Of a stretch of DNA of 64,000 nt, positions 43,801 to 46,800 are shown piece after piece. Within the stretch, counting starts at the first letter, position 1; each line of letters begins with the position of its first letter. Source of the stretch: Escherichia coli (GTDB lineage Bacteria > Pseudomonadota > Gammaproteobacteria > Enterobacterales > Enterobacteriaceae); NCBI RefSeq assembly GCF_044324785.1, contig NZ_CP172127.1. The stretch is one strand, 5' to 3'. The position numbers are program-made.

Positions 43801-46800
43801 AGGCGGAAGAGAAAAGCCTCGAAACACTGACCCGCACTATCACTGAAACCAGCGAGCAACAGGTCAGTTGGGAAACCATTCCGCTGATCGAGCCTATCAG
43901 CTTAAGTCTCGGTTACAAGCTGGTGGCGCTGGTGGACAAAGCGCAGGGGAACCCGCTCACCCAGCGGATTCGCGGCGTGCGGCAGGTGATATCCGACGGT
44001 AACGGTGTGCTGCTGCCGGAGATCCGCATTCGGGAAAACTTCCGCCTCAAGCCCAGCCAGTACGCCATTTTCATCAACGGCATTAAGGCCGATGAAGCGG
44101 ATATTCCGGCGGATAAACTGATGGCCCTGCCCTCCAGCGAAACCTACGGCGAGATAGACGGCGTACTGGGGAACGACCCGGCGTACGGGATGCCGATCAC
44201 CTGGATCCAGCCTGCGCAGAAGGCGAAGGCGCTGAATATGGGGTATCAGGTGATCGACAGCGCCAGCGTGATTGCTACCCATGTGAACAAGATTGTGCGC
44301 AGCTATATTCCTGATTTGTTTAACTATGATGATATTACTCAGCTGCATAACCGTTTATCGTCGATGGCTCCACGGCTGGCGGAAGATTTGAGCGCGGCGC
44401 TGAATTACAGCCAGCTGCTGAAAGTGTACCGCGCGCTGCTGACCGAAGGCGTTTCCCTGCGCGATATCGTCACCATCGCCACCGTGCTGGTCGCCAGTAG
44501 TGCGGTGACCAAAGATCATATTCTGCTGGCGGCAGATGTGCGCCTGGCGCTGCGGCGCAGCATTACCCATCCGTTCGTTCGCAAGCAGGAGCTGACGGTG
44601 TATACGCTGAACAATGAGCTGGAAAATCTGCTGACCAACGTAGTGAATCAAGCGCAACAGGCCGGCAAAGTGATGCTCGACAGTGTGCCGGTGGACCCGA
44701 ATATGCTCAACCAGTTCCAGAGTACGATGCCGCAGGTGAAGGAGCAGATGAAAGCGGCGGGGAAAGACCCTGTGCTGCTGGTGCCACCGCAGTTGCGCCC
44801 TTTGCTGGCGCGCTATGCGAGATTGTTTGCGCCGGGGCTGCATGTGCTGTCGTATAACGAAGTGCCGGATGAGCTGGAGTTGAAGATTATGGGGGCGTTG
44901 AGTTGATGGGGGAGACTATATAAGGTCTCGGACTGTCCCCTCGCCCCTTTGGGGAGAGGGTTAGGGTGAGGGGAAAGTGCGCGCTGAGCCCCTCACCCCG
45001 GCCCTCTCCCCAAAGGGGCGAGGGAGAAAAACGTGTACGACTTTAGCTTTTTCGCAGTATTGCCGTCCTACAAAATCGTCTCTTCCGTCAAAATCCGCCG
45101 CGCGCCTAAAAAATGATCCTGCCAGAAAGGTTCGGCTAACCGGCTTACCCGTATGGTTTCCCCGGTGCGTGGCGATTCGATAAATTGCCCGTCTCCCAGA
45201 TACACGCCCATATGATCGGCAATCTCACGGCTGTGAATATGGAAAAACAGCAAATCTCCCCGGCGCAGGTCGTTGTTCGCCACAATCGTTGCCCGATGGT
45301 AGTGATACATCTCATTAGCCGTACGCGGGAGCTTCGCCTCGAGGATCTTGTTGTAGGCATAAAAAACCAACCCGCTACAGTCGAAGCCTTGATCAGGCCG
45401 CGTGCCGCCCCAGACGTAAGGTTTGCCAAGCTGCTGCTCCAGGCGGTGAATCGCCACTTCGGTGATGTTGTGTAGATGGTCGCTGCTTAAGAAATGGTTG
45501 TTCTCCGCCAGCGCCTGCCAGCGTCTGTCACTCGCCTTGAGCGGCGCAGGAAACCATTCTGGATGCTGTTTTATCTGTTCGCGGTTGTGCTGGCGCAGCG
45601 CCTTTCTGCTTTCGGCATTGCCTTCCACAATGTAGCTGGCCTGCTTTTTCAGATGGGTTTGGTACTGTTTTAATAAACGCGCCCGGTTTTGCATCCGCTG
45701 GCGGGCGGCGTAGCTGAAAGAGATATGTGATGTGGTGGCGCTGGCGAGTAAAGGGAGCAAAACGCATAACGAAAACACGCCTGGATGCAGAAATCTGCCG
45801 TGAAAGAACGAAGACATGAAGGACATAAACCAGCTGAATGAAGGAGAGAATTTTAAAAGGTTGGGGGAGTAAACGGGATTATTAATTGCTTATTTGCATA
45901 TTAGTTACGAGGTTTCATAATCTTAGGAAATAAGTGATACATGCGCTTTTCGGACTAATGAAAACTGCCCCTGTGCTAAATTTGTAAACCCTGCGCCGAC
46001 AGGCTTGCGTAAAACTCTTTTGGTGATAATGTGAGCCTTCCAAATCCAGACTATTCCGATTTGGGATCCATTTTGCCGTCCTGGCGTGTGTAACCGTTTT
46101 ATCAAGGAATAAGCAGTATGCGTAAAATCGCATTAATTCTTGCGATGTTGTTGATCCCGTGCGTTTCGTTTGCCGGTTTGCTGGGCAGCAGTAGCTCAAC
46201 CACGCCAGTGAGCAAAGAGTATAAGCAGCAGTTGATGGGATCCCCTGTCTACATCCAGATCTTCAAGGAAGAACGTACGCTCGATCTCTACGTCAAAATG
46301 GGCGAGCAATATCAGCTGCTCGACAGTTATAAAATCTGTAAATATTCCGGCGGCTTAGGGCCAAAACAGCGTCAGGGCGATTTCAAAAGCCCGGAAGGGT
46401 TTTATAGCGTCCAGCGTAATCAGTTAAAACCAGACAGCCGTTACTACAAAGCGATTAATATTGGATTCCCCAATGCCTATGACCGTGCGCATGGTTATGA
46501 AGGGAAATACCTGATGATCCACGGCGATTGTGTTTCCATCGGCTGCTACGCGATGACCAATCAGGGTATTGATGAGATCTTCCAGTTCGTTACTGGTGCG
46601 CTGGTGTTTGGTCAGCCGAGCGTGCAAGTGAGTATTTACCCGTTCCGCATGACCGACGCCAATATGAAGCGCCATAAGTATTCCAACTTTAAGGACTTCT
46701 GGGAGCAACTGAAACCGGGCTACGACTACTTTGAGCAAACCCGTAAGCCACCGACCGTTTCTGTGGTCAATGGCCGTTACGTGGTCAGCAAGCCGTTAAG

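What the first reader, a model, noticed from the sequence alone, without database searches (positions are those of the whole stretch)
44907..46117. REPIN-like element without rayT; dinJ-yafQ also absent
Where K-12 (as I recall) has the REP-associated transposase rayT/yafM between lfhA and yafL, this strain has only a ~90 bp inverted REP doublet. The yafL-yafK intergenic space (45827..46117, ~290 bp) is too short for dinJ-yafQ. A second singlet of the same unit lies at 47673..47709.
Basis: partly seen in the sequence, partly recalled or inferred. Interest (0 to 1): 0.35.

Follow-up and report, generated by a model that had tools for sequence, protein, structure and literature searches.

The report
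BoxC triplex-repeat pair replacing rayT
Where E. coli K-12 carries the rayT transposase gene, this strain has an inverted pair of the already-described BoxC (triplex-motif) repeats, which is a rare variant of a well-known variable spot and not a new kind of element.

Summary
The window has lfhA' – 161-bp spacer – yafL – 291-bp spacer – dpaA(yafK) – yafJ – gmhA. No rayT, dinJ or yafQ occurs anywhere in the 64 kb.

The label "REPIN-like REP doublet" is wrong as to family. The two 36-nt arms (44938-44973 and 44989-45024) are letter-for-letter identical to published BoxC/PIT/"TMECO" triplex motifs: type A-mm and type B-mm in Table 1 of Holder et al. 2015. They sit in the A+B inverted configuration that paper describes. 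The singlet at 47672-47707 is a type B unit. None of them carries the GTAG tag or resembles the REPs that flank rayT.

Among 5,426 complete E. coli genomes, the lfhA–yafL slot holds:
- rayT in 66%;
- a hicAB toxin-antitoxin pair in 27%;
- a BoxC-type spacer in 2.3%, of which only about 21 genomes (0.4%) keep the intact pair and the rest carry a 64-bp collapse.

dinJ-yafQ is a clean two-allele polymorphism (62% present, 38% empty). The empty allele is shared with E. albertii and looks ancestral. RayT-less E. coli and variable dinJ-yafQ are both already published.

Verdict: a real but ordinary feature of an already known kind. Interest is low.

The parts
43188..44906 (+). lfhA' (Flag-2 flhA-like) pseudogene remnant, with the same N-terminal truncation as in K-12
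   Evidence: Annotated as 'flagellar biosynthesis protein FlhA, incomplete' in the colinear strain N3. The ORF is 43167-44906. It is 95% identical to K-12 lfhA. Its last codons...GAGTTGA, match the Citrobacter type and not the K-12 ...GATGTAA.
44907..45067 (.). lfhA–yafL spacer, 161 bp: the slot that holds BIME-rayT-BIME in K-12
   Evidence: Alignment to K-12 breaks at the lfhA stop codon and resumes at CCGTCCTAC, next to the yafL stop. The spacer is 100% identical in E. coli N3 and 99.4% identical in Pseudocitrobacter vendiensis.
44927..45053 (.). Composite BoxC pair element of about 127 bp: the two arms, the central spacer and conserved outer flanks
   Evidence: Local alignment to the K-12 hrpB–mrcB pair (TMECO 1+2) spans 44927-45053. 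The right-flank similarity is reached by only 6 of 1000 shuffles.
44938..44973 (+). BoxC/PIT/TMECO unit, type A-mm: CCCTCGCCCC-TTT-GGGGAGAGGG-TTA-GGGTGAGGGG
   Evidence: Exact string identity to TMECO 7/11/15 in Table 1 of Holder et al. 2015.
44974..44988 (.). 15-nt central spacer of the pair (AAAGTGCGCGCTGAG), the short-spacer form
   Evidence: It resembles the spacer of the K-12 hrpB–mrcB pair.
44989..45024 (-). BoxC/PIT/TMECO unit, type B-mm: CCCTCGCCCC-TTT-GGGGAGAGGG-CCG-GGGTGAGGGG on the minus strand
   Evidence: The reverse complement is exactly TMECO 3 in Table 1 of Holder et al. 2015.
44961..45024 (.). The 64 bp missing in the 'collapsed' allele, bounded by direct repeats GGGGAGAGGG (44951-44960) and GGGGCGAGGG (45015-45024)
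   Evidence: Comparison with strain TUM14771. About 105 genomes carry the collapsed form.
45068..45826 (-). yafL (NlpC/P60 peptidase). This is a divergent allele with the N-terminus that goes with the dinJ-yafQ-less site.
   Evidence: Pfam NLPC_P60, E = 3e-33. 92.5% amino-acid identity to K-12 YafL from residue 9. The homologue in N3 is annotated as starting at the position equivalent to 45817.
45827..46117 (.). yafL–dpaA spacer, 291 bp: the empty dinJ-yafQ site
   Evidence: K-12 has 906 bp here, including dinJ-yafQ. The window segment 45754-45977 has no K-12 counterpart. It does align to the spacers of E. albertii, Escherichia sp. E1V33 and SCPM. The same allele is in 2,084 of 5,426 genomes.
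46118..46858 (+). dpaA (yafK)
   Evidence: 100% amino-acid identity to K-12 DpaA.
46829..47596 (-). yafJ
   Evidence: Colinear with the annotated yafJ of strain N3.
47672..47707 (-). BoxC/TMECO singlet, type B, in the gmhA–yafJ spacer where K-12 has three REPs
   Evidence: One mismatch to TMECO 10. REPs occupy this spacer in all other Escherichia and Citrobacter examined. The BoxC allele is in 329 of 5,426 genomes.
47718..48296 (-). gmhA (lpcA)
   Evidence: Colinear with the annotated lpcA of strain N3.

Best explanation
The 87-bp doublet is an inverted A+B pair of BoxC repeats, also published as PIT elements and as TMECO intrastrand-triplex motifs. It lies inside a composite element of about 127 bp that fills most of the lfhA–yafL spacer.

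Shown here:
- Both arms are identical to published motifs.
- The configuration is the published A+B inverted pair.
- The slot is hypervariable, with at least five allele types.
- The intact-pair allele is rare, about 0.4% of genomes.

Shown in the literature for these exact 36-mers:
- As single strands they fold into stable purine-motif triplexes in vitro.
- TMECO loci are unusually rearranged between E. coli strains.
- Paired sites often collapse to a simple stem-loop.

Inferred:
- The element is a structure-prone, probably non-functional or weakly functional DNA repeat, not a relic of rayT.
- This strain carries an alternative spacer haplotype spread by homologous recombination. The haplotype is also linked to intact Flag-2 clusters and occurs in Pseudocitrobacter.
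- The common 64-bp-shorter allele arose from the pair by slippage between the GGGGNGAGGG direct repeats.
- The missing dinJ-yafQ is the ancestral, never-occupied site.
For: - Exact identity of the arms to TMECO 7/11/15 and TMECO 3; the singlet is one mismatch from TMECO 10.
- The paper reports that pairs are always type A plus type B, inverted. It also reports the 'palindrome effect' collapse and local hypervariability.
- Family members in K-12 lie next to fabI/envM, where BoxC was first named, and at gcvP–ygfF.
- Census of 5,426 genomes: rayT 3,575; hicAB 1,480; BoxC-type spacer 127, of which 21 are intact.
- The deletion endpoints lie in 10-nt direct repeats.
- The same spacer occurs in strains N3, 2012C-4221 and PCN033 (the last with intact Flag-2), and in P. 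vendiensis.
- Mosaic identity profiles show that recombination is active in this region.
- Citrobacter has neither rayT nor dinJ-yafQ here.
- The empty dinJ-yafQ allele aligns to E. albertii and accounts for 2,084 genomes; with the 3,340 carriers that makes 5,424 of 5,426.
- Published: dinJ-yafQ was gained in the EB1A lineage and phylogroup F, and some E. coli lack the RAYT gene.
Against: - The polarity of the spacer is unresolved. rayT sits in this slot in E. albertii and three other Escherichia lineages. The window also keeps CCGTCCTAC next to the yafL stop, the same variant REP end seen in K-12, E1V33 and E. albertii. The BoxC spacer may therefore have replaced a rayT cassette and need not descend from a never-occupied site.
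- The spacer is 99.4% identical between the window and P. vendiensis while the flanks are 90-94% identical. That could mean selective constraint, in other words a function.
- Only the window was available, so I could not confirm that the source genome lacks a RAYT elsewhere.
Confidence: 0.85

Rival explanations
1. One reading: the doublet is a REPIN, a pair of RayT-type REPs, left in place after rayT was lost.
For: It is an inverted pair that folds into a long hairpin, like a REPIN. It occupies the rayT slot. A 9-nt REP-like end, CCGTCCTAC, abuts yafL.
Against: - The arms share no similarity with the Y/Z REPs that flank rayT.
- There is no GTAG or CTAC inside the spacer.
- The arms are exact BoxC/TMECO motifs.
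- The family is low-copy.
- A true 'REPs left behind' allele exists and looks quite different: ECAMP047 has six REPs.
Confidence: 0.03
2. The pair is a selected transcription or RNA element: a bidirectional barrier or a 3'-end stabilising hairpin between the convergent lfhA' and yafL genes. That constraint would keep it nearly invariant.
For: - It lies between convergent genes.
- The RNA hairpin is very stable, -88 kcal/mol.
- There are no differences from P. vendiensis across 44871-45045, while the flanks differ at 3-7 sites per 50 bp.
- In Citrobacter this spacer holds a simple terminator-like hairpin.
Against: - There is no U-tract and no terminator-pattern hit at the pair.
- There is no Rfam family, only sub-threshold generic hairpin matches.
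- Published tests found no promoter or terminator activity for PIT elements (cited).
- Uncompensated arm substitutions occur in 2012C-4221 and PCN033.
- About five times more genomes carry the collapsed form than the intact pair.
- lfhA' is a pseudogene.
Confidence: 0.12
3. The A+B pair with its flanks, about 127 bp, is a non-autonomous mobile element (MITE- or REPIN-like) moved by an unidentified enzyme. It inserted into a short ancestral spacer, and a related unit displaced the REP at gmhA–yafJ.
For: - Pairs at four or more unrelated loci share outer flanks and spacer types beyond the triplex blocks.
- Types A and B are always paired.
- Presence or absence varies at many loci.
- In this haplotype, both REP-bearing spacers of the K-12 syntenic region carry BoxC instead.
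Against: - I saw no target-site duplication or terminal inverted repeats at 44927 or 45053 by direct reading.
- No transposase is associated with the element.
- Holder et al. found no link to mobile elements.
- The two BoxC alleles are only partly linked: 329 against 127 genomes.
- The whole spacer, including its non-repeat ends, is shared with P. vendiensis, which fits inheritance or recombination as well as insertion.
Confidence: 0.15

Closest known systems
BoxC (Bergler et al. 1992) = PIT elements (Hoyne et al. 2000) = TMECO intrastrand triplex motifs (Holder et al. 2015, NAR 43:10126, PMC4666352)
   Same: - Both arms are identical in sequence to entries in Table 1 of the paper.
- They have the three-block layout: pyrimidine block, loop, purine block, TTA or CCG loop, purine block.
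- They are intergenic.
- They form the type A plus type B inverted pair.
- The surrounding locus is hypervariable, and a collapsed stem-loop derivative exists.
   Different: Nothing differs in kind. This locus (lfhA–yafL, and gmhA–yafJ) is not a TMECO site in K-12, and I found none of yafL, lfhA, fhiA, yafJ, gmhA or lpcA in the paper's held supplements. It is an additional, rare locus for the family.
REP / BIME / REPIN with RayT (YafM, TnpA-REP) of E. coli (Nunvar 2010; Bertels & Rainey 2011; Ton-Hoang 2012; Messing 2012)
   Same: It is a short GC-rich extragenic palindrome arranged as an inverted doublet that can form a long hairpin. It occupies the slot that holds rayT and its flanking REPs in K-12.
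   Different: - No sequence similarity to REPs.
- No GTAG tag.
- Tens of copies per genome rather than hundreds.
- Not found flanking any RAYT gene.
- Each unit has a third purine block (triplex motif) that REPs lack.
RAYT-less E. coli genomes (Park, Gokhale & Bertels 2021, Genetics, PMC8049555, Fig. 2)
   Same: The window belongs to the minority of E. coli without rayT at the conserved locus. Here that minority is 34% of 5,426 genomes.
   Different: The sections of that paper I read do not say what replaces rayT. Here most replacements are hicAB, and only 0.4% are an intact BoxC pair.
dinJ-yafQ presence/absence polymorphism (González-Alba et al. 2019, BMC Genomics, PMC6896753)
   Same: dinJ-yafQ is absent, as reported for lineages outside EB1A and phylogroup F.
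   Different: None. My census (62% present, 38% empty) and the outgroup comparison simply agree with a gain in some lineages.

Membership tests
BoxC / PIT / TMECO triplex-motif repeats | A 34-37-nt unit built of a pyrimidine block (CCCTC[G/T]CCC(C)), loop 1, a purine block (GGG(G)AGAGGG), loop 2 (TTA for type A, CCG for type B) and a second purine block (GGGTGAGGG(G)) | tested here: met
   The left arm equals TMECO 7/11/15 and the reverse complement of the right arm equals TMECO 3, both as exact strings. The singlet is one mismatch from TMECO 10.
BoxC / PIT / TMECO triplex-motif repeats | Always intergenic | tested here: met
   The pair lies between the lfhA' stop and the yafL stop. The singlet lies between the gmhA stop and the yafJ start.
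BoxC / PIT / TMECO triplex-motif repeats | When paired, one type A and one type B unit in inverted orientation | tested here: met
   Type A-mm is on the plus strand and type B-mm on the minus strand, 15 nt apart. The rule is stated.
BoxC / PIT / TMECO triplex-motif repeats | Low-copy dispersed family in E. coli: 23 triplex motifs or 33 annotated BoxC in K-12 | tested here: met
   Related copies are found at K-12 gcvP–ygfF, fabI upstream, hrpB–mrcB and alx–sstT. The median is 7 BLAST-detectable places per genome, range 1-16.
BoxC / PIT / TMECO triplex-motif repeats | The single strand folds into an intrastrand purine-motif triplex | not testable with these tools
   Shown by CD and NMR for type A-mm and B-mm oligonucleotides; the window's arms are exact type A-mm and B-mm sequences from that paper's Table 1. 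No triplex predictor was available here.
BoxC / PIT / TMECO triplex-motif repeats | The locus is more rearranged between strains than control spacers, and paired sites can collapse to a stem-loop | tested here: met
   At least five spacer alleles exist. The 64-bp collapse is present in about 105 genomes.
RayT-associated REP / REPIN | A conserved GTAG (or CGTC) tetranucleotide at one end of each palindromic unit | tested here: not met
   There is no GTAG or CTAC in 44907-45067. The nearest CTAC, at 45068, overlaps the yafL stop codon.
RayT-associated REP / REPIN | The units match the REPs that flank the cognate RAYT gene | tested here: not met
   The K-12 rayT flanks are Y/Z REPs. Fuzzy searches for these find none in the window. 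There is no RAYT in the window.
RayT-associated REP / REPIN | High copy number, at least 69 REPINs per E. coli genome | tested here: not met
   K-12 has 23-33 copies of this family, and the median is 7 detectable places per genome.
RayT-associated REP / REPIN | Two inverted units separated by a short spacer that form a hairpin | tested here: met
   36-nt arms, 92% complementary, 15-nt spacer, z = -9.7. This is a shape shared with REPINs, not evidence of membership.
dinJ-yafQ type II toxin-antitoxin locus | dinJ and yafQ ORFs between yafL and dpaA | tested here: not met
   tblastn finds no hits. The spacer is 291 bp, and its ORFs have no Pfam match.

The most novel reading that the evidence does not exclude
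BoxC A+B pairs, as composite units of about 127 bp with conserved outer flanks, could be the replicating unit of a REPIN-like non-autonomous element moved by an unidentified, non-RayT enzyme. They would compete with REP/RayT for the same intergenic slots. In this haplotype both REP-bearing spacers of the region carry BoxC instead, and the pair is kept 99-100% identical across E. coli and Pseudocitrobacter while the flanks differ by 6-10%.
Probability: 0.1. Interest if true: 0.55.

Novelty: already known. Interest (0 to 1): 0.13.

Why it matters
It matters little on its own. It corrects a mislabel: BoxC/triplex motif, not REP/REPIN. It also shows that the rayT locus of E. coli is a three-way variable slot (rayT with REPs, hicAB, or a BoxC pair), which is worth knowing for anyone who uses rayT presence or absence to study REPIN population dynamics. 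The near-identity of the spacer between E. coli and Pseudocitrobacter, and the swap of REP for BoxC at two nearby spacers, are small leads on how these repeat families turn over.

Tried and rejected
- A strict IUPAC REP pattern found nothing. I repeated it with fuzzy REP cores. The window has no canonical REP, but K-12 has REPs only at the same two spacers of the syntenic 38 kb, so this says nothing about genome-wide REP depletion.
- I fetched MG1655 at coordinates taken from a rearranged derivative strain and landed inside yneO. I re-fetched by hit id and found the gcvP–ygfF pair.
- Three literature searches for 'box C' were swamped by unrelated hits. A fourth turned up the paper giving the K-12 BoxC count, and the Holder et al. 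2015 paper came from the search.
- I looked for a donor locus for the non-repeat ends of the spacer. Strain A10 yijF–gldA is just another pair with different flanks.
- The Rfam scan gave only sub-threshold matches to eukaryotic miRNA-precursor models, which are generic hairpin artefacts.
- The terminator and promoter scan found nothing at the pair.
- I looked for yafL, lfhA, fhiA, yafJ, gmhA and lpcA in the supplements of Holder et al. and found none.
- I considered that the window might come from outside E. coli, because the best match is 97.9%. The divergence is concentrated in the lfhA' pseudogene and in mosaic blocks, while neighbouring genes are 98-100% E. coli-like.
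Full report
**1. What is in the window**

Reading the sequence and listing ORFs gives this order:
- lfhA' (+, ends 44906)
- a 161-bp spacer
- yafL (-, 45068-45826)
- a 291-bp spacer
- dpaA/yafK (+, 46118-46858)
- yafJ (-)
- a 121-bp spacer
- gmhA (-, from 47718)
- fadE (+)

tblastn with K-12 RayT, DinJ and YafQ finds nothing in the 64 kb. YafL (92.5% identity) and DpaA (100%) are where expected.

The doublet is real. Its arms are 44938-44973 and 44989-45024, each 36 nt, 92% complementary, 15 nt apart. It folds far better than shuffled controls: RNA -87.9 kcal/mol, z = -9.7; DNA -46.2 kcal/mol, z = -9.2. The unit's 21-nt core occurs three times in the window, against none in 100 shuffles.

**2. 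What the repeat is**

It is not a REP.
- The K-12 rayT gene is flanked by classical Y/Z REPs of the form GCCGGATGCGGCG...CTTATCCGGCCTAC. Strict and fuzzy searches find no such sequence anywhere in the window.
- The spacer contains no GTAG or CTAC.

The units have this form instead: CCCTCGCCCC-TTT-GGGGAGAGGG-(TTA|CCG)-GGGTGAGGGG.
- Copies of the same family occur in K-12 between gcvP and ygfF, as an inverted pair.
- Another copy lies just upstream of fabI/envM, the gene in whose sequence paper 'box C' was first named.

Holder et al. 2015 (NAR, PMC4666352) treat exactly this family under the names BoxC, PIT and TMECO.
- Their Table 1 lists 23 motifs in MG1655.
- The window's left arm is string-identical to TMECO 7/11/15 (type A-mm).
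- The reverse complement of the right arm is string-identical to TMECO 3 (type B-mm).
- The singlet (47672-47707, minus strand) is one mismatch from TMECO 10, type B.
- The paper states that at all five paired sites in K-12 a type A unit is combined with a type B unit in inverted orientation. The window shows the same arrangement.

Aligning the window pair with K-12 pairs shows that the conserved unit is larger than the two triplex motifs.
- About 11 bp to the left, the short central spacer (GTGCGCGCTGA) and about 29 bp to the right are shared with the hrpB–mrcB pair.
- That gives a composite element of about 127 bp, 44927-45053.

Rfam has no family for it; the only matches are sub-threshold generic hairpin hits. 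A consensus scan sees no terminator or promoter at the pair.

**3. The locus is a variable slot**

In 5,426 complete E. coli genomes:
- rayT is present in 3,575, as a single copy.
- Representative genomes show at least five spacer alleles:
  - BIME-rayT-BIME (K-12, NIPH17);
  - BIME only, with six REPs (ECAMP047);
  - a hicA-hicB toxin-antitoxin pair (YZLc1-3);
  - the BoxC pair (the window, N3);
  - a 97-bp spacer in which the pair is reduced to one stem-loop (TUM14771).
- hicAB at this site is in 1,480 genomes.
- BoxC-type spacers are in 127 genomes. Only 21 of these have the intact pair (examples are listed).
- About 244 genomes are left for BIME-only and other forms.

The collapsed allele differs from the window by exactly 64 bp (44961-45024). 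That segment is bounded by the direct repeats GGGGAGAGGG and GGGGCGAGGG. This is the 'palindrome effect' reported by Holder et al. for paired sites, along with their finding that TMECO loci are unusually rearranged between strains. RAYT-less E. coli are already documented (Park et al. 2021).

**4. Outgroups and polarity**

I scanned one genome per species for YafL relatives and mapped the neighbouring genes.
- Citrobacter species: no rayT, no dinJ-yafQ, and a spacer of about 44 bp with a simple hairpin.
- E. albertii, Escherichia sp. E1V33 and E. coli SCPM-O-B-8794 (a separate representative genome in that collection): rayT present, dinJ-yafQ absent.
- Escherichia sp. MOD1-EC7003: both present.
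- Pseudocitrobacter faecalis: rayT present.
- P. vendiensis and a Pseudocitrobacter MAG: the same BoxC-pair spacer as the window, at 99.4% and 96.2% identity.

The P. vendiensis block running from yafL through lfhA, lfhB and fliR is 94.7% identical to E. coli PCN033. Citrobacter is about 81%. This block has therefore moved between genera.

Within that block the pair shows no differences from the window over 175 bp, while the flanks differ at 3-7 sites per 50 bp.

Whether the BoxC spacer replaced a rayT cassette or descends from a site that rayT never occupied is not settled.
- For the never-occupied reading: the window's lfhA ends ...GAGTTGA, like Citrobacter and unlike most rayT alleles.
- For replacement: rayT is old in the genus, and the window keeps CCGTCCTAC at the yafL stop, the same variant REP end as in K-12, E1V33 and E. 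albertii.
- A complication: the TAG stop of yafL is itself part of that motif.

**5. dinJ-yafQ**

- The K-12 yafL–dpaA interval is 906 bp. The window's is 291 bp.
- The non-homologous segment (window 45754-45977) includes the 5' end of yafL.
- That segment aligns to the corresponding spacers of E. albertii, E1V33 and SCPM.
- dinJ-yafQ is in 3,340 genomes and the empty allele is in 2,084. Together they account for 5,424 of 5,426, so this is a clean two-allele polymorphism.
- González-Alba et al. 2019 report dinJ-yafQ as gained in the EB1A lineage and phylogroup F.
- Absence here is therefore most likely ancestral.

**6. The singlet**

The gmhA–yafJ spacer carries one or three REPs in K-12, other E. 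coli, E. albertii, E1V33 and SCPM, and REPs in Citrobacter. The window, N3, 2012C-4221 and PCN033 have a type B BoxC unit with different flanks. This allele is in 329 genomes. It is derived, and only partly linked to the BoxC-type lfhA–yafL spacer.

K-12 has REPs at only these two spacers in the syntenic 38 kb. The lack of REPs in the window is therefore local and gives no evidence about the whole genome.

**7. Mechanism and function**

Shown in vitro for type A-mm and B-mm oligonucleotides, the types the window's arms match exactly: stable intrastrand triplex formation.

Reported by others: no promoter or terminator activity for PIT elements (cited).

Inferred here:
- The pair is a structure-prone DNA repeat.
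- Its main observable consequences are local instability (the 64-bp collapse and several replacement alleles) and a very stable hairpin in any read-through transcript.
- A functional role as a transcription barrier or 3' stabiliser is not excluded. The cross-genus conservation supports it weakly. Uncompensated arm substitutions in 2012C-4221 and PCN033 and the more frequent collapsed allele argue against it.

**8. Verdict**

The element, the absence of rayT and the absence of dinJ-yafQ are all of already-known kinds. The allele census and the cross-genus sharing of the spacer are minor descriptive additions.

Noticed in passing
window 40934-40969 (between yafP 40485-40934 and yafN 40969-41259): The yafO toxin gene of the dinB-yafN-yafO-yafP operon is missing, while YafN (99% identity) and YafP (93%) are intact. 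The strain keeps an orphan yafN antitoxin. It therefore lacks dinJ-yafQ and yafO, and has no hicAB at the rayT slot.
   Followed up: partly
lfhA–yafL slot in other genomes, e.g. L008 2212-2839 (E. coli YZLc1-3): A hicA-hicB toxin-antitoxin pair occupies the rayT slot in 1,480 of 5,426 complete E. coli genomes (27%). It is the commonest alternative to rayT at this site.
   Followed up: partly
L015 5051-9779 (Pseudocitrobacter vendiensis) against L034 (E. coli PCN033): The yafL–lfhA–lfhB–fliR (Flag-2) block is 94.7% identical between Pseudocitrobacter and E. coli, against about 81% for Citrobacter. The homology ends inside the 5' end of yafL. This suggests inter-genus transfer of the Flag-2 block with yafL at its edge. 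Both the rayT allele and the BoxC-pair allele occur in Pseudocitrobacter species.
   Followed up: partly
window 44871-45045: The BoxC pair and its inner flanks show no differences between the window and P. vendiensis, while the flanking genes differ by 6-10%. I could not tell whether this reflects constraint, gene conversion or a recent small recombination patch.
   Followed up: partly
window 45751-45826 (yafL 5' end): YafL has two alternative N-termini that track the presence or absence of dinJ-yafQ. K-12 and MOD1-EC7003 have MSLPSIPSF.... The window and other TA-less alleles have MSFMSSFF.... The TA insertion therefore replaced the 5' end and promoter region of yafL.
   Followed up: no
window 1 to about 25000, and 30436: A P22-like prophage (portal, terminase, gp10, DNA ejection proteins) fills the first ~25 kb. 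The K-12-syntenic backbone begins at about 30436, next to thrW, where K-12 has the CP4-6 prophage.
   Followed up: no
window 52595-64000: This region is not syntenic with K-12. It holds an IS transposase (DDE_Tnp_1, 52595-53452) followed by type VI secretion genes: Rhs (54411-58640), VgrG (58707-60815), Hcp (61025-61543) and TssB/VipA (62240-62740). K-12 has only the yafT–ykfM–yafU remnants here.
   Followed up: partly
window 38939-39958: The window has about 1 kb extra relative to K-12 at the ykfJ/prfH position, where the K-12 genes are pseudogene fragments. The window probably carries the undeleted form.
   Followed up: no
window 41000-45250 against strain 2012C-4221 (L033): The identity profile is sharply mosaic: 0-1 differences per 250 bp across 45500-47750, but 8-19 per 250 bp across most of dinB–lafU–lfhA' and at 45000-45250. 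No complete E. coli genome matches the 43100-48500 segment (lfhA'–fadE) better than 97.9%. Recombination is heavy around this slot.
   Followed up: partly
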